Shown piece after piece: positions 11,951-18,613 of a stretch of 64,000 bases of DNA (its first letter is position 1; the number at the start of each line of letters is the position of its first letter). This DNA comes from Phycisphaerae bacterium. GTDB taxonomy: Bacteria; Planctomycetota; Phycisphaerae; UBA1845. The position numbers were made by a program, and so were the translations under genes. Below the pieces are notes generated by a model. The model saw nothing but the letters and a program-made list of their open reading frames with translations. It did no database searches and was not told the DNA's origin. The stretch covers positions 695 through 64,694 of the forward strand of contig JAJDDW010000010.1 of NCBI GenBank assembly GCA_029260115.1, in the 5' to 3' direction.

Positions 11951-12337
11951 ATGCGAATTCGTTACACGATTCTTGCTATAGCGGCTATATCCATGTTTTT
12001 TGGGACTTCAACCGCGTTTGCTCAACTTTCTGTTGGCATCGGTCAGCGACCTGGCGAGATGGTTAATGGTGGCGTATTCCGTGCTCAATCGTTTGGTGCC
12101 CCGGTACAAATCACGGCAACGGGGCGACAAGGCTCCATTAGAACTGATTTTCTCGTAGAAGCCGTCAATATTGTTTTTACGCAGATTAATCAGGCTGTAG
12201 ATGCGTTTGCCGCTCTATTGGTTCTGCGGGCTGGTGGGGTTCCCTCTTTACCGGCGTTGCCTGATACGACGACGGTTCCTGACGCCACAAGGCGTAAGGC
12301 AGCCACTGTTATCAAGACTTCTCGTCATTGGCGATAA
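11951..12337 (+). CDS. Hypothetical secreted protein (128 aa)
   Basis: Signal peptide ending AFAQ. No family recognised. Confidence 0.5.
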   Translation: MRIRYTILAIAAISMFFGTSTAFAQLSVGIGQRPGEMVNGGVFRAQSFGAPVQITATGRQGSIRTDFLVEAVNIVFTQINQAVDAFAALLVLRAGGVPSLPALPDTTTVPDATRRKAATVIKTSRHWR

Positions 12338-12844
12338 GTTTGTAGCCCTACTAGGTGAAGGCTCCATCTCTGACCAAATCGGTAATGGCGAAGGCGTCGT
12401 ACCCACAGGCTTTTCTCCAGAATATTTCAAGGCGACAAAACACATTTTTCCATTACTTCGGCCCACACAAGCCTAATACGACATGAAGATGATAAAACAA
12501 CAACACTCCGCAGTTGCCGTCCGTAACCGTTAGTTGTCATGACAGTAACAAATCGATGTTTCTACTTAGATTTAATAGCTTGTAATATCATTAGTCACTG
12601 AAGCGATATCGCTTTTCCTCTACTCGCAATGTGCCTATTAATAGGGCCGATAACTGGAATATATCATATAAACAGCACACATATAGTTCTCAGGGAAAAT
12701 ACTTCCTGCTTAGTAGAATTTGTGGAGAAGAAAATTTTTTATGTGTCGGCAATAACCGCCGCGTCCTGTCGTTTAGCCCGCTGGTGAGGCCGGTTTCATG
12801 GGCGTTAGTCCACCGGTGGGGGCTGATATATAGGAGATTCAACG

Positions 12845-13633
12845 ATGAAGACTACAATGATGATCTTGTTGGCAACTAGCATGGGCAGCACTGCCTTGGC
12901 ACAACCACGGAGCAAACCTGGGGCCAACAGGGCTAACCCGTGCCTTAGACAATGTATGAATGATTTTCGTGAACAGGTCCAGACTTGCGTGAATAATGGC
13001 GGAGGTAGGCGAGACTGCGCCCCTCAGTTACGAGAGGGCCTGCGAGCCTGCAGCGAAGCATGCGATGGCGGGGCTAGCTGTCAGCAAATCTGCAAGGCAC
13101 GAGGCGGAAAAACTTTCCGTCGATGTATACAAGAGGGCGGTGACGAAGAAGTTTGTACGCAGCGCGGTCACGCCATGGGGTTGCGATGTATGGCACAAAG
13201 ATGTGGACAATTGCCTCCGTGTCCAGAAAACTGTAAATCGAAAAGTAAAGCGTTATTTGACACATGTATCGATGAAGGTGGCGATGACGAGGCCTGCGCT
13301 GAACAAGCCAGAGAAGCAGCCATGGCCTGTGTCGAAGCGGAATGTGACGAGCTTCCTGACTGCGTAGATTACTGTCGCTTTGCAGGTGGCCATATCATTA
13401 ATGCGTGCTACGACAATGAAAACGAAGACCTTCACTGCCGCCATCGAGGCGCATGGTTCTTGGGCCATTGTTTACGCGACACTTGCGACATGCCCGAGGC
13501 CTGCGAAGCTATATGCCGCATGGAAGCCGATGCCCTGCTCGCGGAGTGTCAATCGACTGTTGACGGCGACGATTGTCGCCACGAAGTTCACCAGGCCTTC
13601 GACGATTGTCTGTTCGAATTATGCGCGCCGTAG
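12845..13633 (+). CDS. Secreted cysteine-rich protein with five tandem about 47 aa six-Cys repeats
   Basis: AGGAG lies 8 nt upstream of the ATG, and the signal peptide ends ALAQ. There are 30 Cys with invariant spacing C-x3-C-x10-C-x(8,9)-C-x10-C-x(3,4)-C, repeated five times. Confidence 0.8.
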   Translation: MKTTMMILLATSMGSTALAQPRSKPGANRANPCLRQCMNDFREQVQTCVNNGGGRRDCAPQLREGLRACSEACDGGASCQQICKARGGKTFRRCIQEGGDEEVCTQRGHAMGLRCMAQRCGQLPPCPENCKSKSKALFDTCIDEGGDDEACAEQAREAAMACVEAECDELPDCVDYCRFAGGHIINACYDNENEDLHCRHRGAWFLGHCLRDTCDMPEACEAICRMEADALLAECQSTVDGDDCRHEVHQAFDDCLFELCAP

Positions 13634-13773
13634 ATCGCGGATGATGTAAGACGCTGGCAAGGCGCGATTCCGCGAGGTGCTTCTCTTTTAGAGAACTGAT
13701 CGGCGAATCGGAACCAGGGGAGACGCTTGTAGATCGCGTCTTGCACCAGCAGGTCATAGCATTTGATTGAGTC

Positions 13774-14379
13774 ATGATGGCTATGTTGAATACAAATGTC
13801 GATGCTTCCTGGGCTACGCTAATTGAGCGGGCCAAGCGCCAGGACCCGGAAGCCCTCGACGCCATCGTTGATCAATATGCGGGAAGGTTATTCGGTTTTT
13901 TCCATCGCATGTTAGGCGCACGCGACGGAGTGGAAGATTTGGTTCAGGAAGTTTTTGTTCGGGTGGTGCGGATGATTCCACAGTACGACGAAAAGGGACG
14001 ATTCGAGTCCTGGCTGTTTAGGATCGCGGCCAATCTGAATCGAGATCGCATACGAAAACTTCAGCGACAACCAGCTGTCTCTTTGGACGAAACCCAAGAT
14101 GACCAAGGAACAGATGCCGTCGAAGCTCGATCAGTATCCGCACATGAGCAAACCAGAGGGCCACAAGACGCGCTCGCGATGACGGAGGAGTTAGCTGATC
14201 TCCAAGATTGCCTAATGAAACTCTCATCGGAAGAGCGAACAGTTGTATTGTTACGGCATTATGGGCAACTTGAATATGCGGAAATTGCCCAGATGATGGA
14301 GACGCCTATCGGCACGGCACTAGCTAGAGCCCACCGAGGGCTGAAAAAACTTCGTCAATTGATGGAGTCGAGAACATGA
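13774..14379 (+). CDS. ECF-type RNA polymerase sigma-70 family factor
   Basis: Region 2 (DLVQEVFVRVVR, FESWLFRIAANLNRD) and region 4 HTH (LRHYGQLEYAEIAQMMETPIGTALARAHRGLKKL). Confidence 0.9.
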   Translation: MMAMLNTNVDASWATLIERAKRQDPEALDAIVDQYAGRLFGFFHRMLGARDGVEDLVQEVFVRVVRMIPQYDEKGRFESWLFRIAANLNRDRIRKLQRQPAVSLDETQDDQGTDAVEARSVSAHEQTRGPQDALAMTEELADLQDCLMKLSSEERTVVLLRHYGQLEYAEIAQMMETPIGTALARAHRGLKKLRQLMESRT

Positions 14380-14981
14380 GCCATGACAATCAAAAAAATC
14401 AGGGCTTTGCATCCGAGGAATCCTGGCTCAATGAGCATTTACTCGATAATGAAGAGCCGAACGCCGACTTTATCAAACTGCGCATGCGCATCGAGATAGA
14501 AGAGCAATGGCTACTCGAAGAACTGCAACAGGAAGACTTGCAATTCGTGGCTATCGATGTGCGGCGGGCCTTGCGGGAAAGAGTGAGACAGGAAATTGAG
14601 AACATTCAAGTTGAGCAGCTGCGAAAAATTCGAAGGCGTCTTAGGGGCTGGCCTATATGGGTAGGCACGGCCGTTGCAGCGGCTGCGGCGGTCGTGTTTG
14701 TGGTTACAAAACCATCACTCGTCGAGCATACAGATGCAGACGAATCAACCATTTGGCTATCCGCATTCGAAGCTTATACAACTGATACATTTGGAACTGA
14801 AATGTCTGAAATCGATAGCGAATTGAACACCTTTGCAGACTCGCTTGTCGCTTTAGACAACCCATGGCTATCGAATAACTGGGCATCTGAGCCTACAGAT
14901 TTCGACGAAAACGATAGGAACAATTCAGGATTGCAAGAGAAATCACGCAATCAAGGCGCGGGCGCGGAGTCAGGCACATGA
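14376..14981 (+). CDS. Putative anti-sigma factor (single-pass membrane protein)
   Basis: ATGA start/stop overlap with the sigma gene. One TM helix (WPIWVGTAVAAAAAVVFVVT). The position is typical of a cognate anti-sigma, but there is no zinc-binding HxxxCxxC motif. Confidence 0.55.
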   Translation: MSHDNQKNQGFASEESWLNEHLLDNEEPNADFIKLRMRIEIEEQWLLEELQQEDLQFVAIDVRRALRERVRQEIENIQVEQLRKIRRRLRGWPIWVGTAVAAAAAVVFVVTKPSLVEHTDADESTIWLSAFEAYTTDTFGTEMSEIDSELNTFADSLVALDNPWLSNNWASEPTDFDENDRNNSGLQEKSRNQGAGAESGT

Positions 14982-15811
14982 CACATGACATCAATAACAT
15001 AAGGTATCGATTTTCAGGCATCGCAGTCAGGCTCTGCATGGTTTTGTTGTGCAGCATAGCAGTGGATACCGTTCATGCCCAAAGCGACCAGCGTAACGAA
15101 AAACCGTTTAACCTCGCTGCCAGAGAGGGACGAGGACAGGCACGCGAACGGCAGCCACGACGGTGGCCATCGCAACGGATGGGCGAAAGGGATAATGATA
15201 CGCGACCAGATATGCGCGGTGATCGCAACAGGGAGGGCTTACCGCCACGTGAAGGGTTAGATGGCCCACCTGACCGTCGCGGGCCTAAGCCAAAAAGCTG
15301 GCAAGACCTTTCAAAAAAAGAGCGGGCTGAAGTGGTCGAATTTCTAGAAGAACATTTTCCACTTATGTCGATTGAATTAAAAAACTTGCGAGATCGAAAT
15401 CCTGAAGTCTTCAAACGCCGCATGCGTCGCGTCATCCCGGAAGTACGTAGGGTGATGGAGCTAATGAAGATCAACCCGCAGCGGGCTAAGCTTCACATTC
15501 AAGAACGCAAACTAGATATGCAAATGCGTTATAAAGCGAATATGTTCAGAAAAAGTCGTGATGATCTCCAGCGAGTGAAATTACGCCAGGAACTCGACGA
15601 CCTAGCCACCCAGGGTTTCGATGTGCAATTGCAGTTGCGTCAAATGGAAATTTCCGACCTTCAGACCCGAATGGGGGAGTTAGCCACCAGACTAGAGGAA
15701 GCCAAGGAATTACGCCCGAAGATGATTCGGCAGCGGGTGGAGACGTTACTGTCTGCAGACCGTAATCGACCACCCCGAGACGACATGGCGCAACCGGAAC
15801 GGCCAAGATAA
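14978..15811 (+). CDS. Exported highly charged Arg/Glu-rich helical protein (possible Spy/CpxP-like periplasmic partner)
   Basis: ATGA overlap with the upstream gene. Signal/anchor segment (LCMVLLCSIAVDTVHAQ). Long predicted helical R/E/K/Q-rich region. Confidence 0.65.
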   Translation: MTHDINNIRYRFSGIAVRLCMVLLCSIAVDTVHAQSDQRNEKPFNLAAREGRGQARERQPRRWPSQRMGERDNDTRPDMRGDRNREGLPPREGLDGPPDRRGPKPKSWQDLSKKERAEVVEFLEEHFPLMSIELKNLRDRNPEVFKRRMRRVIPEVRRVMELMKINPQRAKLHIQERKLDMQMRYKANMFRKSRDDLQRVKLRQELDDLATQGFDVQLQLRQMEISDLQTRMGELATRLEEAKELRPKMIRQRVETLLSADRNRPPRDDMAQPERPR

Positions 15812-16278: not shown

Positions 16279-16962
16279 TTAAGGCACAAACTTATAGCCA
16301 ATGCTGTGAACAGTTACGATATGCCTAGGCTGCTTGGGGTCTGGCTCAATTTTTCGCCGTAGGCTCACGATATGGTTGTCCACCGTGCGGGTCGCAGGAA
16401 AACCTTCTAGCCCCCAAATCACATCTAAGAGGCGGTTTCGTTCCACGGGTTGTTCAGCTTTTTCCACCAGTAGTTTGAGAATCTCCAGCTCAAAGTGGCC
16501 AAGATTATGTACCACGTCACCATGCTCAACTTTACCTTTAACAAGGTCCACAGTGGCCGAACCAATAGTCAGGATGCGTGAAAGCCCCTTGCCCGCGTCA
16601 GTGCGACGCAATGCCGCTTTGATTCTCGCGAGTAGTTCCCGGACGCTAAATGGCTTGGTGATATAGTCATCCGCACCGACTTCCAGCCCTCGAACAATGT
16701 CGATTTCCTGGCTCTTCGCCGTCAACATGAGGATAGGCATGGTATGGCCAGCTTGTCTTATGCGACGGCAGACCTCCAGACCATCTAGCTTGGGCATCAT
16801 GATGTCGAGCAGGATGAGGTCTGGGCTTTCAGACAGTGCCGCCGCCAGTGCCGCTTCGCCATCTTCAGCTACCAATACCTGATAATTTTCAAACTCCAAA
16901 TTGTCACGCAGGCCTGCTACAATATCAGTCTCGTCGTCAGCTACTAGAATCCTTGTTGGCAT
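16279..16962 (-). CDS. OmpR/PhoB-family response regulator
   Basis: Receiver domain (ILVADDE, DLILLDIMMPKLDG, LTAK) plus a winged-helix C-terminal domain (VDNHIVSLRRKIE...IVTVHSIGYKF). Confidence 0.92.
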   Translation of the reverse strand: MPTRILVADDETDIVAGLRDNLEFENYQVLVAEDGEAALAAALSESPDLILLDIMMPKLDGLEVCRRIRQAGHTMPILMLTAKSQEIDIVRGLEVGADDYITKPFSVRELLARIKAALRRTDAGKGLSRILTIGSATVDLVKGKVEHGDVVHNLGHFELEILKLLVEKAEQPVERNRLLDVIWGLEGFPATRTVDNHIVSLRRKIEPDPKQPRHIVTVHSIGYKFVP

Positions 16963-17017
16963 GATTTTGTTCTCCGCTCGTCCCAGGTCATTACTATTTC
17001 GTTACATTGTACCTTGA

Positions 17018-18613
17018 TTATGTGGTCAAGTCTGTGCTTTGCTGTGGGTTTTCGTCGTCCCGTGATGACATTTCCTCATCCTTCGGCTCATCATCGGCCT
17101 GTGGCAGAAAAATTCTAAACGTGCTCCCTTTTACCAGGCGAGATTCTATATCAAGAATGCCACGATGGGCATCCACGATTTGTTTGACCAATGCGAGGCC
17201 CAATCCAGTGCCTCGCTGACGCCTGACTCGACTATCAGAAGCCCGAAAAAAGCCGTCCATAAGCTTGGAACGGTCTTCCGGGCGAATGCCAATCCCGTGG
17301 TCATGCAAGGAAATCAGCACGCCATGCTGTCCGCGGCGGACCTCGGTCGCTAGTTCAATCAGCAGATACCGTTCATTAGTGCTGTATTTGACGGCATTAC
17401 TGATAAGGTTGATAAGCACCTGGATCATGGCATCTCGGTCAGCCATGACGAGGGGGAGATTATCTTCAACCTCCAGACTATGTTCAAAACCAGCCCGCTC
17501 CAACTGCTCCCCATACGCGGCATAGGTTTCCTGGGCCACCTGACCCATGTTGATCGGATGAAATTCATAGACCTGCCTGCCTGTTTCAATACGGGCAAAA
17601 TCGAGAATGTTATTGATGAGATTTGTTAGTCTTGTACTTTCTCTGGTGATAATATCGTAATAGTCCTGCCGCTTTTCATCCGTCGTGATGCGCCCAGACT
17701 GCAAAGTCTCACTATACATACGAATCACAGCCAAGGGCGTTTTTAATTCATGGGATACATCCGCGACAAAATCTGATTTCATCTGAGCTAAGTCTAGCTC
17801 TTTCCTAGCCAATCGTACAAGAATCAGCATCGCAACAAGTAGCGTAACCAACGCGAATCCTGTCAATCCGAGATCGAACATCGTTTGGCCATACACCGTG
17901 CGTCGCAGTTCCTTCACATATTCTGGCGTCGGCTTGATTGTCCAAAATTTCATTGCACTGAGCAATTGCTGAGACCATCGTGTAGCTACGCCATCGCTAC
18001 GAACTAGCATGAGTCCCGTTGCAGGGGAGATTAACGGCTCTATCAAATCTCGACGAAGCATTGGCAATACGACGCGAACAACCACAGCTATCTTCTGCGC
18101 TTTCGCGTCAACTGTCCGATGGTAAGCAAGTACAATTTTCGTGCCCGCTAGCGTGTCGTACAACAGCTCTGTCCCTTGAGGCGTGACCTCTGGCGGGTCT
18201 TCAAAAGAGCGCACAGCAAACCTTGCGACCATCAAGTTCTCAAGTTTAGCCGGAGCATATTCAGCCGGTACTGCAGTCGCTAGATGGCTTCCGTCCCATG
18301 TGTAAACACCATCTATCCAACTTGGCCAATCTTTGGGCGGCAGCCACTCCTTCGGAGCCTGATTTCGGACATAATCCGAGGCTGATTCCAGTGAATTTGA
18401 TAATTGACGATTAAACGTACCTCTCGCGTGATTAGCGATATAGGTAGCTCGGTCCTCAACCTGGACCATCAGAATACTCATGAGAGATTGGGCATGCTTG
18501 AACGAAAGAACGACGCCTAATACGGCCAAGCCAATAGCGAGTACTACCATCCATAGTCCGGCAACACGCCAGGTGAGCGTGCGATTTGTTGCATGGGGTG
18601 TTGTTGCGGCCAT
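17018..18613 (-). CDS. Sensor histidine kinase (two TM helices, periplasmic sensor domain)
   Basis: H-box VSHELKTPL, N-box LISNAVKYS, and G boxes DHGIGI and GTGLGLALV. Confidence 0.9.
   Translation of the reverse strand: MAATTPHATNRTLTWRVAGLWMVVLAIGLAVLGVVLSFKHAQSLMSILMVQVEDRATYIANHARGTFNRQLSNSLESASDYVRNQAPKEWLPPKDWPSWIDGVYTWDGSHLATAVPAEYAPAKLENLMVARFAVRSFEDPPEVTPQGTELLYDTLAGTKIVLAYHRTVDAKAQKIAVVVRVVLPMLRRDLIEPLISPATGLMLVRSDGVATRWSQQLLSAMKFWTIKPTPEYVKELRRTVYGQTMFDLGLTGFALVTLLVAMLILVRLARKELDLAQMKSDFVADVSHELKTPLAVIRMYSETLQSGRITTDEKRQDYYDIITRESTRLTNLINNILDFARIETGRQVYEFHPINMGQVAQETYAAYGEQLERAGFEHSLEVEDNLPLVMADRDAMIQVLINLISNAVKYSTNERYLLIELATEVRRGQHGVLISLHDHGIGIRPEDRSKLMDGFFRASDSRVRRQRGTGLGLALVKQIVDAHRGILDIESRLVKGSTFRIFLPQADDEPKDEEMSSRDDENPQQSTDLTT

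What the first reader, a model, noticed from the sequence alone, without database searches (positions are those of the whole stretch)
12845..13633. Secreted protein made of five tandem six-cysteine repeats with invariant spacing, next to an ECF sigma operon
**What the sequence shows.**
- After a signal peptide, the entire mature protein is five consecutive 43-47 aa units.
- Each unit has the Cys spacing C-x3-C-x10-C-x(8,9)-C-x10-C-x(3,4)-C, giving 30 Cys in total.
- There is an acidic patch before the fourth Cys of each unit (EGGDEEVC, EGGDDEAC, NENEDLHC, VDGDDC).
- The gene has a strong AGGAG ribosome-binding site and lies 140 nt upstream of an ECF sigma / anti-sigma / periplasmic protein operon on the same strand.

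**Why it matters.** I do not recognise the repeat as a named family. It is not the DUF326 CxxCxxxC type, and it is not EGF or Kazal. It could be a disulfide-rich structural module, a metal store or buffer, or a redox sensor feeding the ECF pathway.
Basis: seen in the sequence. Interest (0 to 1): 0.55.

Follow-up and report, generated by a model that had tools for sequence, protein, structure and literature searches.

The report
Secreted triple-disulfide helical-hairpin repeat protein
A small exported bacterial protein is built from five copies of an uncatalogued 46-residue module, predicted to be two helices pinned together by three disulfide bonds, and in its closest relatives its gene always sits directly in front of an envelope-stress sigma-factor operon.

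Summary
ORF 12845-13633 (+) encodes a 262-aa protein: a signal peptide followed by five units with invariant spacing C-x3-C-x10-C-x8/9-C-x10-C-x3/4-C, 30 Cys in all.

The unit is not an orphan. A profile of the five units finds 292 protein clusters (E<=1e-3) in 1.84 billion representatives. These carry 2 to about 40 units with the same spacing.

Bacterial genomes with several tandem units were mainly Planctomycetota and Myxococcota, with single Binatia and two proteobacterial MAGs. No Pfam, NCBIfam or PDB entry models the unit.

AlphaFold2 with a 120-unit alignment gives a helix-turn-helix hairpin (pLDDT 96.7). Across the family, C3+C4 and C1+C6 are lost together. This supports a three-rung disulfide ladder rather than a metal site.

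Larger members combine the repeat with dockerin, PKD and Kazal domains, which are extracellular.

The ECF link is real but narrow. All five independent loci with this ECF sigma / anti-sigma / basic periplasmic-protein operon carry the Cys-rich gene immediately upstream. Only 1 of 18 other family loci has any sigma gene nearby.

Verdict: an unmodelled extracytoplasmic disulfide-stapled alpha-hairpin repeat, analogous to plant alpha-hairpinins and CHCH proteins. Here it is a stand-alone version coupled to an ECF module. Its role in that module is inferred, not shown.

The parts
12735..12844 (+). Conserved 5' leader or promoter region of the Cys-rich gene. The core 12768-12822 is nearly invariant, contains the hairpin GGCCGGU...ACCGGU, and carries a GGCAAT-N16-CGTTTAG stretch with ECF-like spacing.
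   Evidence: It is 86% identical to L001 over 105 nt. The CDS is only 74% identical and synonymous sites are saturated. There is no Rfam match. Folding gives z = -2.0. Its function was not tested.
12832..12836 (+). Ribosome-binding site AGGAG, 8 nt before the ATG.
   Evidence: Read from the sequence. It is conserved in L001.
12845..13633 (+). CDS of the 262-aa Cys-rich repeat protein, stop codon included.
   Evidence: Purifying selection, omega about 0.08.
12845..12904 (+). Signal peptide (aa 1-20, A-L-A|Q).
   Evidence: Read from the sequence. It is conserved in the L001 ortholog. No predictor was run.
12941..13063 (+). Unit 1 (Cys33-Cys73), spacing 3-10-9-10-3.
   Evidence: Helices 32-50 and 55-73 in the whole-protein model.
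13079..13204 (+). Unit 2 (Cys79-Cys120), spacing 3-10-9-10-4.
13220..13345 (+). Unit 3 (Cys126-Cys167), spacing 3-10-9-10-4. This is the unit closest to the family consensus.
   Evidence: Modelled alone with a 120-sequence alignment: pLDDT 96.7, helix 3-20, turn, helix 25-43.
13361..13486 (+). Unit 4 (Cys173-Cys214). It has an atypical loop (NENEDLH) and the segment HCRHRGAWF, and is the unit best conserved among orthologs.
   Evidence: 81% amino-acid identity to L001.
13502..13624 (+). Unit 5 (Cys220-Cys260), spacing 3-10-8-10-4.
13700..13751 (+). Conserved block in the 140-nt spacer before the sigma gene (GGAACC...GACGCTTG...GCGTCTTGCACC). It is a candidate promoter.
   Evidence: Alignment of five loci. 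No terminator-like site lies in the spacer. The -35/-10 assignment is unresolved.
13774..14379 (+). ECF sigma factor, 201 aa.
   Evidence: Sigma70_r2, r4_2 and TIGR02937 hits.
14376..14981 (+). Putative anti-sigma factor, 201 aa. It has one TM segment, no Cys, and an acidic periplasmic tail.
   Evidence: Weak NF052375 anti-sigma hit, E=3e-5, below the curated cut-off. Position and 4-nt overlap. Tail charge about -15.
14978..15811 (+). Basic 277-aa periplasmic protein (mature charge about +15). Orthologs carry an LTxxQ-like motif.
   Evidence: One of five orthologs hits PF13801 Metal_resist at E=0.009. No PDB relative.
16279..18613 (-). OmpR-type response regulator and histidine kinase. They stay next to the four-gene cluster in window, L001 and L002.
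   Evidence: ORFs in the window, syntenic with the Pfam-annotated RR and HK genes in L001 and L002. A functional link was not tested.

Best explanation
**Shown or strongly supported**
- The gene encodes a Sec-exported protein whose mature part is five 46-residue alpha-alpha hairpins.
- The Cys positions (i, i+4, i+15 in helix 1; j, j+11, j+15/16 in helix 2) mirror each other around a tight G-G-acidic turn.
- The unit belongs to an uncatalogued repeat family. It occurs mainly in Planctomycetota and Myxococcota, with a few Binatia and proteobacterial MAGs.
- In that family, tandem units are joined by short Pro-rich, acidic linkers. They are combined with extracellular domains (dockerin, PKD, Kazal).

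**Inferred**
- The six Cys of each unit form a three-rung disulfide ladder C1-C6, C2-C5, C3-C4, 15 disulfides in all. This would make a very stable, acidic (net about -16) rod or string of beads in the periplasm or on the cell surface.
- In this lineage the stand-alone five-unit version forms one conserved unit with an ECF sigma / anti-sigma / basic periplasmic-protein operon. It is probably co-transcribed or co-regulated with it.
- It most likely acts in the envelope as a partner or output of that stress system. A plausible contact is binding of the acidic repeat protein to the strongly basic 277-aa protein.

Confidence is about 0.8 for fold and family, about 0.7 for disulfides over metal, and about 0.35 for a direct role in the ECF module.
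For: **Family**
- The profile of the five units finds 292 representative proteins with E<=1e-3 and 126 with E<=1e-10, with up to 38 matched stretches.
- There are 675 units with exactly the same spacing in the top 150.
- Consensus: C-E-E-R-C-xxx-A-xx-V-F/Y-xx-C-L-xx-G-G-D-E-E-x-C-xxx-A-xxx-L-xx-C-L-x-E-x-C. The loop Gly is 91% conserved. Ala is 62-65% conserved one turn after C2 and C4.

**Fold**
- Ten helices in five pairs in the single-sequence model.
- One unit with 120 aligned units gives pLDDT 96.7 and a helix-turn-helix.

**Disulfide ladder**
- Of 813 full-length units, 809 have six Cys and 4 lack exactly C3+C4. None has an odd number.
- With C1, C2, C5 and C6 fixed, C3/C4 are both present 740 times, both absent 6 times (six different proteins), and never singly absent.
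- With C2-C5 fixed, C1/C6 are both present 822 times and both absent 75 times. They are singly absent 42 times, mostly a CxxC-shifted variant or terminal units.
- The turn C-x3-G-G-x4-C superposes at 0.4-0.8 A on the viscotoxin helix-turn-helix. That helix-turn-helix is known to be closed by Cys16-Cys26 (established knowledge).

**Export**
- The protein has a signal peptide.
- 112 of 138 full-length relatives have an N-terminal hydrophobic run.
- Dockerin, PKD and five Kazal domains occur in larger members.

**ECF coupling**
- The Cys-rich gene lies directly upstream of sigma in window/L003, L001, L002, L129 and L130.
- Upstream synteny is broken in L001 and downstream synteny in L002, yet the cluster persists.
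- No terminator-like site lies in the spacer.
- The 5' leader is more conserved than the coding sequence.
- Charges are complementary: -15.7 for the repeat protein and +14.7 for the 277-aa protein.
Against: - No coordinates were available, so S-S distances in the models were not measured.
- The HMM and regular expressions select for Cys, which biases the count of complete units. The paired-loss result is less affected.
- No expression, localisation or redox data exist.
- The ECF link holds only within one clade. The 277-aa protein is 53-62% identical across those loci, so part of the conservation could be inherited synteny.
- Among 18 non-orthologous family loci, only L008 has a sigma-like gene, and it is divergent.
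- No shared promoter motif could be established between the two upstream regions.
- The proposed binding to the 277-aa protein rests only on opposite charge.
Confidence: 0.55

Rival explanations
1. Redox or oxidative-folding sentinel. The 15-disulfide protein would be the sensory input of the ECF system. When periplasmic disulfide formation fails or thiol/reductive stress unfolds the protein, the reduced form, alone or through the basic 277-aa protein, triggers loss of the anti-sigma factor and releases sigma.
For: - The four-gene cluster is strictly conserved.
- The anti-sigma factor has no Cys and so cannot sense redox itself.
- The repeat protein and the periplasmic tail of the anti-sigma factor are acidic, and the 277-aa protein is basic.
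- Units 4-5 carry an ortholog-specific conserved surface, HCRHRGAWF.
Against: - There is no direct evidence.
- The family at large is not ECF-linked, so sensing would be a lineage-specific co-option.
- A triple-stapled hairpin is expected to be unusually resistant to reduction, which makes it a poor sensor.
- Being first in the cluster is equally consistent with being a regulated product.
Confidence: 0.13
2. Periplasmic metal (Cu, Zn or Cd) buffer or store. Thiolates lining each hairpin, together with the acidic loops, would bind metal. The ECF operon would be a metal-stress system.
For: - The mature protein is 12% Cys and has acidic loops.
- One ortholog of the 277-aa protein weakly hits PF13801 Heavy-metal resistance at E=0.009, and orthologs carry an LTxxQ-like motif.
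- Metal-responsive ECF systems are known (general knowledge).
Against: - Cys are lost in partner pairs and never singly.
- The spacing is that of a helix-helix ladder, not the CxxC/CC/CxC clusters of metallothioneins.
- There is no DUF326/Csp match.
- His and Met are scarce.
- Family members carry extracellular disulfide-type domains such as Kazal.
- Sec export into an oxidising compartment favours disulfides.
Confidence: 0.1
3. Polyprotein precursor. As in plant alpha-hairpinin precursors (a signal peptide plus 5-12 tandem hairpin modules), the protein would be cleaved in the linkers to release five stable hairpin peptides with antimicrobial, inhibitor or signalling activity.
For: - The architecture is the same as that of Sm-AMP-X and Tk-AMP-X precursors (PMC7191063).
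- Linkers are short and conserved among orthologs: CDGGASC, CGQLPPC, CDELPxC, CDxPEAC.
Against: - The linkers have no recognisable processing motif.
- In the family, linkers are Pro-rich spacers (28% Pro), and units are embedded in large multidomain surface proteins. This argues for a structural module.
- The units are acidic (mean -3.4), unlike most membrane-active peptides.
- No peptidase or exporter gene lies in the cluster.
Confidence: 0.07
4. Bystander. This would be an ordinary extracytoplasmic structural or adhesive repeat protein whose position next to the ECF operon is inherited synteny without functional coupling.
For: - The family is generally not ECF-linked.
- All five linked loci come from one clade.
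- ECF sigma genes are very numerous in Planctomycetota (general knowledge; PMC7826278).
Against: - The linkage survives where flanking synteny is broken on either side, at a divergence where synonymous sites are saturated.
- The genes share a strand, the spacer is short, and no terminator-like site was found.
Confidence: 0.2

Closest known systems
Plant alpha-hairpinins (EcAMP1, MiAMP2, Sm-AMP-X, Tk-AMP-X; CX3C-Xn-CX3C)
   Same: - Two antiparallel helices are stapled by ladder disulfides (Cys7-Cys29 and Cys11-Cys25 in EcAMP1; PMC7191063).
- They are secreted.
- They are encoded as a signal peptide plus 5-12 tandem modules.
   Different: - They have four Cys and two disulfides, not six and three.
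- They lack the conserved x10 spacing and the G-G-acidic turn.
- They are plant peptides released by proteolysis.
- No sequence relationship was detected.
- The resemblance is best read as convergence on one fold.
Mitochondrial intermembrane-space twin-CX9C (CHCH) and twin-CX3C (small Tim) proteins
   Same: - They form a helix-turn-helix hairpin with Cys one face apart, oxidised in a periplasm-like compartment.
- CX3C and CX9C/CX10C spacings both occur (reviews listed).
   Different: - They have two disulfides per hairpin and a single domain, not tandem repeats.
- They are eukaryotic and imported through Mia40.
- There was no Pfam CHCH hit.
- Here one hairpin combines a CX3C rung and a CX10C rung on each helix.
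Thionin / viscotoxin helix-turn-helix (Pfam PF00321)
   Same: - There is local similarity over 20-24 residues around the turn (FxxCLxxGGxxExC against YNTCRLGGGSRERC).
- The similarity is 29-32% identity at 0.4-0.8 A rmsd.
- The same x9 loop is closed by a disulfide (Cys16-Cys26 in viscotoxins, established knowledge).
   Different: - Thionins have a beta-alpha-alpha-beta fold of 46 residues with other Cys partners.
- Only the turn aligns.
- Pfam scores pass the cut-off in two relatives only by summing weak repeat matches, with no single domain passing.
- The repeat is not a member of this family.
kappa-Hefutoxin / CS-alpha-alpha toxins (PF08095) and Cerebratulus toxin B-IV
   Same: They are disulfide-stapled alpha-hairpins. 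Weak hits: E=0.068, E=0.08-0.13, and 1vib.
   Different: They are single 22-55 residue animal toxins with other spacings, and none of the matches is significant.
Csp1/Csp3 copper storage proteins (DUF326)
   Same: They are Cys-rich helical bacterial proteins, and Csp1 is exported.
   Different: - They are four-helix bundles with unpaired thiolates lining the core and CxxxC/CxxC motifs.
- There was no Pfam match.
- Here the Cys behave as pairs.

Membership tests
Uncatalogued six-Cys alpha-hairpin repeat (this family, defined here) | Spacing C-x3-C-x10-C-x(7-11, mostly 9)-C-x10-C-x(3-4)-C in tandem units. | tested here: met
   All five units fit. 680 of the units in the top 150 relatives have 3-10-9-10-3/4.
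Uncatalogued six-Cys alpha-hairpin repeat (this family, defined here) | Helix-turn-helix fold with a Gly-Gly-acidic turn. | tested here: met
   AF2 pLDDT 96.7 for unit 3. The loop Gly is 91% conserved in the family. Units 1-3 have GG; units 4 and 5 deviate.
Uncatalogued six-Cys alpha-hairpin repeat (this family, defined here) | Ladder disulfides C1-C6, C2-C5, C3-C4. | tested here: inconclusive
   Paired loss of C3+C4 (6 against 0 single) and of C1+C6 (75 against 42, mostly shifted variants) supports this. C2-C5 follows by elimination. There is no chemical or coordinate evidence.
alpha-Hairpinin | Four-Cys motif CX3C-Xn-CX3C. | tested here: not met
   The unit has six Cys. The rung next to the turn is at x10, not x3.
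alpha-Hairpinin | Helix-loop-helix fold with ladder disulfides. | tested here: met
   (fold by prediction, pairing by co-loss).
CHCH / twin CX9C (Pfam CHCH) | Two CX9C motifs and a Pfam match. | tested here: not met
   The spacing is x10 plus x3. No Pfam hit at E<=1.
Thionin (PF00321) | Domain-level match over the 46-residue profile. | tested here: not met
   Only profile positions 7-30 align. No single stretch passes. The query protein itself has no thionin hit.
DUF326 / Csp copper storage | Pfam DUF326 repeat match. | tested here: not met
   No hit at E<=1.
Kazal / EGF | Pfam match of the repeat itself. | tested here: not met
   No hit for the repeat. Kazal domains occur as separate domains in relative P0020.
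ECF sigma factor (neighbour gene 13774-14379) | Sigma70 regions 2 and 4 only, about 200 aa. | tested here: met
   PF04542 E=3.5e-18, PF08281 E=1.8e-13. TIGR02937 scores 96 bits against a cut-off of 42.9.
Spy / CpxP / ZraP (LTXXQ, PF13801) for the 277-aa protein | Pfam match and LTXXQ motifs. | tested here: inconclusive
   One of five orthologs hits PF13801 at E=0.0093. Two orthologs carry the motif DLTQAQRKQI. No PDB match.

The most novel reading that the evidence does not exclude
The five-hairpin, 15-disulfide protein could be a dedicated extracytoplasmic signalling component of the ECF system. It would act as a folding-state or redox gauge, or as a ligand, that works with the basic 277-aa periplasmic protein to control a Cys-free anti-sigma factor. 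That would be a new input mechanism for ECF sigma factors, built on a new disulfide-stapled hairpin repeat.
Probability: 0.12. Interest if true: 0.75.

Novelty: new variant of a known kind. Interest (0 to 1): 0.45.

Why it matters
- **An uncatalogued domain.** A sizeable extracellular repeat family has no model in Pfam or NCBIfam and no solved structure. It comprises about 300 clusters at 50% identity with up to about 40 units per protein, mostly in Planctomycetota and Myxococcota. A family model would annotate hundreds of 'hypothetical' Cys-rich surface proteins.
- **A bacterial counterpart of a known fold.** The module parallels the disulfide-stapled alpha-hairpin known from plant alpha-hairpinins, mitochondrial CHCH and small Tim proteins, and animal CS-alpha-alpha toxins, but with three rungs. 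It is a compact 46-residue scaffold predicted to be very stable, and could interest protein engineers.
- **A testable ECF question.** The conserved cluster with an ECF sigma / anti-sigma pair offers a case of an accessory extracytoplasmic protein in ECF signalling in a poorly studied phylum.

Tried and rejected
- **Word-indexed protein search.** The whole protein returned only itself, and the 120-unit alignment returned nothing. This is a tool limitation, not absence: the L001 ortholog and the whole family exist.
- **Metagenome scans.** Scans with the ortholog alignment and with the 277-aa protein alignment both ended with no tblastn-confirmed locus.
- **Whole-protein fold search.** It gave only generic designed or TPR-like helical repeats with TM below 0.3. 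Inter-unit packing is unreliable (pTM 0.38).
- **Single-hairpin fold search.** Nothing was significant because the query is too small.
- **Rfam.** No family matched the leader or the spacer.
- **Leader recurrence.** A BLASTN search for the leader or the sigma-upstream block elsewhere in 128 held loci found only the orthologous sites.
- **Promoter assignment.** The attempt to read an ECF -35/-10 pair in the sigma-upstream block failed. GGAAC to CGTC is 22 nt, too long for canonical ECF promoters.
- **Genome DNA-pattern scan.** Only loci with three or more tandem units in one ORF were accepted.
- **C2/C5 paired loss.** This could not be tested, because the regular expression mostly picked out-of-register spans.
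- **Literature.** Searches found no description of this bacterial repeat.
Full report
**1. The observation**

The ORF at 12845-13633 (+) is real and is as described.
- It encodes 262 aa, preceded by AGGAG 8 nt upstream of the ATG.
- It starts with a typical Sec signal sequence (MKTTMMILLATSMGSTALA|QP), read from the sequence.
- The 30 Cys fall into five units with gaps 3-10-9-10-3, 3-10-9-10-4 (three times) and 3-10-8-10-4. The units are joined by five-residue linkers.
- Outside the Cys the units are only 17-33% identical. No DNA-level tandem repeat is detectable, so the duplication is ancient and only the Cys framework has been kept.
- A codon-level pattern for the framework hits twice in the window, against none in 100 shuffles.
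- The acidic patch before the fourth Cys is present in units 2-5 but not in unit 1.
- An ECF sigma gene starts 140 nt downstream (Sigma70_r2 and r4_2). It is followed, with overlapping stop and start codons, by a single-pass anti-sigma-like protein and a 277-aa exported protein.

**2. A real gene under constraint**

An ortholog of identical length lies in L001, in the same position. The record title of another contig of that assembly names it a Planctomycetota MAG (isolate Dive100_bin1.21).
- Amino-acid identity is 71% and nucleotide identity 74%.
- Synonymous sites are saturated (pS 0.70) and dN is 0.16, so omega is about 0.08.
- All 30 Cys are conserved.
- Units 4 and 5 and the linkers (CDGGASC, CGQLPPC, CDELPxC, CDxPEAC) are the best-conserved parts. 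They include a non-consensus segment, ENEDLHCRHRGAWF.

**3. Not an orphan: an unmodelled repeat family**

Named libraries do not cover it.
- Pfam-A and NCBIfam give nothing for the protein.
- PDB sequence search gives only a spurious HspBP1 match.
- The word-indexed protein search returned only the protein itself.

An exhaustive HMMER search with a profile of the five units against 1.84 billion representatives gave a different picture.
- 292 proteins have E<=1e-3, 126 have E<=1e-10 and 30 have E<=1e-30.
- They carry 2 to 38 matched stretches.

The matches are not loose Cys-rich noise.
- In the top 150 proteins, 680 units have exactly 3-10-9-10-4 or 3-10-9-10-3.
- The consensus is P-x-C-E-E-R-C-xxx-A-xx-V-(F/Y)-xx-C-L-xx-G-G-(D/S)-E-E-x-C-xxx-A-xxx-L-xx-C-(L/V)-x-E-x-C.
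- The loop Gly is 91% conserved, and Ala lies one turn after C2 and after C4.
- About thirty family members scanned against Pfam and NCBIfam match no model for the repeat.
- Sub-threshold hits to Thionin and Hefutoxin are discussed below.

General family features:
- Linkers are most often 5 residues (range 3-25), with 28% Pro, and are acidic.
- Units carry a mean charge of -3.4.
- 112 of 138 proteins that start with Met have an N-terminal hydrophobic run.

Larger members add dockerin type I, PKD and, in one case, five Kazal domains. All of these are extracellular domains.

Loci with three or more tandem units in one ORF were found in these groups:

| Group | Loci |
|---|---|
| Planctomycetota (Phycisphaerae, Planctomycetia and unclassified MAGs) | L012, L024, L026, L040, L061, L098, L105, L111, L121 |
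| Myxococcota | L048, L091 |
| Ca. Binatia | L022 |
| Gammaproteobacterial / proteobacterial MAGs | L070, L106 |

**4. Fold and Cys chemistry**

- The single-sequence AF2 model of the whole protein has ten helices paired exactly as the units predict. Mean pLDDT is 68 and pTM 0.38, so inter-unit packing is unreliable.
- Unit 3 modelled with 120 diverse units gives pLDDT 96.7: helix 3-20, a four-residue turn, helix 25-43.
- The Cys lie at i, i+4 and i+15 in helix 1, and at j, j+11 and j+15/16 in helix 2. This is a mirror image about the turn, with all Cys on one helical face. That is what an antiparallel ladder C1-C6, C2-C5, C3-C4 requires (inference from geometry).

Independent support comes from loss patterns in the family.
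- Of 813 complete units, 809 have six Cys, 4 lack exactly C3 and C4, and none has an odd number.
- With the outer four Cys fixed, C3/C4 are both present 740 times, both absent 6 times (in six different proteins) and never singly absent.
- With the inner four fixed, C1/C6 are both present 822 times and both absent 75 times. They are singly absent 42 times, and most of these are a variant in which C1 is shifted to CxxC, or terminal units.

Paired loss is the signature of disulfide partners, not of independent metal ligands. Together with Sec export and the extracellular partner domains, I take disulfides as much more likely than metal thiolates (about 0.7). I could not measure S-S distances because model coordinates are not exposed.

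**5. Comparison with known structures**

- Fold search of the whole model returns only generic helical repeats.
- The single hairpin is too small for significance.
- A profile search of PDB sequences gives only marginal local matches: viscotoxins (E=0.03-0.06, residues 9-28) and kappa-hefutoxin (E=0.08-0.13).
- These are the helix-turn-helix parts of disulfide-stapled hairpins. The viscotoxin turn superposes at 0.4-0.8 A with about 30% identity. It has the same x9 loop, closed by Cys16-Cys26 (established knowledge).

The nearest architectural analogues are plant alpha-hairpinins. They have two antiparallel helices, two ladder disulfides and a CX3C-Xn-CX3C motif, and are encoded as a signal peptide plus 5-12 tandem modules (PMC7191063). 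The mitochondrial twin-CX3C and twin-CX9C proteins are also close. None is a sequence relative, and the defining motifs are not met (six Cys, x3 plus x10 rungs). The module works like these families but is not a member of any. I found no paper describing the bacterial repeat.

**6. The ECF neighbourhood**

The 277-aa protein has only four relatives in the word-indexed database, at 53-62% identity. Every contig carrying one of them has the Cys-rich gene immediately upstream of the sigma gene.

| Locus | What is present |
|---|---|
| L001 | Full-length gene |
| L002 | Last two units, cut by the contig end next to a transposase-like fragment |
| L130 | Last three units, at the contig start |
| L129 | Last 30 residues, at the contig start |
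| L003 | The same sequence as the window |

That is 5 of 5 loci. The cluster holds although L001 has two extra genes inserted just upstream, and although L002 loses synteny beyond the adjacent response-regulator / kinase pair.
- The spacer has no terminator-like site.
- It contains a block conserved in all five loci. I could not assign canonical ECF -35/-10 elements to it.

Among 18 non-orthologous family loci, a phmmer search with the sigma factor finds only one sigma-like gene. It is divergently oriented next to a Ser/Thr kinase, in L008. The paralogs in the two sibling MAGs (L026, L061) are not next to a sigma gene. The coupling is therefore a property of this orthologous group, not of the repeat.

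**7. Mechanism**

*Shown:* an exported five-hairpin protein of a new repeat family, and a conserved four-gene cluster with an ECF module.

*Inferred:* 15 ladder disulfides giving a rigid, acidic (about -16) envelope protein, and co-expression with the ECF operon.

*Speculative:*
- The protein may interact with the strongly basic 277-aa protein (about +15).
- Orthologs of that protein show an LTxxQ-like motif and one weak PF13801 hit.
- The anti-sigma factor has no Cys, so any redox sensing would have to be delegated.

I rank the readings as follows.
- Structural or binding envelope protein that is a partner or product of the ECF system: best.
- Bystander: 0.2.
- Redox or folding sentinel: 0.13.
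- Metal buffer: 0.1.
- Processed polyprotein: 0.07.

**8. Verdict**

- The finding is a genuine, uncatalogued extracellular disulfide-stapled alpha-hairpin repeat. It is a new variant of a known structural principle, with a lineage-specific and functionally unexplained association with an ECF sigma module.
- Interest is moderate. It merits a family model and a structure, and it gives a tractable hypothesis for ECF accessory proteins. Nothing yet shows an unprecedented mechanism.

Noticed in passing
window 12735-12844 (core 12768-12822); L001:7762-7866: The 5' leader of the Cys-rich gene is 86% identical between window and L001. The coding sequence is 74% identical with saturated synonymous sites. 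The leader folds into a hairpin-rich structure (z = -2.0), has no Rfam match, and contains GGCAAT-N16-CGTTTAG with ECF-like spacing. It is a candidate regulatory RNA or promoter, but only two sequences are available.
   Followed up: partly
window 13700-13751; L001, L002, L129, L130 equivalents: The block GGGAaCCA..GACGCTTG..GCGTCTT upstream of the sigma gene is conserved in five loci. GGAAC to CGTC is 22 nt, too long for a canonical ECF promoter, so its nature is unresolved.
   Followed up: partly
L002:1-465: In MAG Dive96_bin2.90 the ortholog is reduced to its last two units. It abuts the 3' end of a transposase-like ORF at the contig start. This is either an IS insertion or an assembly break at an IS.
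   Followed up: no
L001:3421-7482 versus window 12338-12844: L001 carries a hybrid histidine kinase / response regulator and a radical-SAM gene between the 128-aa secreted gene and the Cys-rich gene. The window has only a 507-nt spacer there. The breakpoint lies just upstream of the conserved leader.
   Followed up: no
window 16279-18613 (-): An OmpR-type response regulator and a histidine kinase, convergent with the ECF operon, stay adjacent to the four-gene cluster in window, L001 and L002, even where further synteny is lost.
   Followed up: no
L026:980-1945 and L061:344-1456: The two sibling MAGs each carry a six-unit paralog of the repeat protein. It is divergently paired with another Cys-rich secreted protein (17 Cys in 166 aa; 26 Cys in 462 aa). 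No sigma gene lies nearby.
   Followed up: partly
window 14978-15811 and orthologs P0003-P0006: The 277-aa periplasmic protein is very basic (pI about 10.5), with an Arg/Pro/Gly-rich N-terminal half and a coiled-coil-like C-terminal half. Two orthologs contain DLTQAQRKQI (LTxxQ-like), and one hits PF13801 Metal_resist at E=0.009. It may be a distant Spy/CpxP/ZraP-type protein.
   Followed up: partly
P0067, P0009 (family members): The Pfam Thionin (PF00321) whole-sequence score exceeds the gathering cut-off only by summing weak matches to many repeats. No single domain passes. Automated annotation could therefore mislabel family members as thionins.
   Followed up: yes
P0013 (870 aa, 15 matched stretches): This is a subfamily variant in which the first rung is CxxC instead of Cx3C (for example PCEACAMELE...). 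It shows that the outer rung tolerates a one-residue shift.
   Followed up: no
window 11951-12337 (+): A 128-aa ORF with a signal peptide lies between gyrA and the Cys-rich gene. It is conserved after gyrA in L001 (2731-3129) and has no family match.
   Followed up: no
The word-indexed protein search and the tblastn-confirmed locus searches are effectively blind to this Cys-rich family, even missing a 71%-identical ortholog. 'No homologs' from those tools should not be trusted for such proteins.
   Followed up: yes
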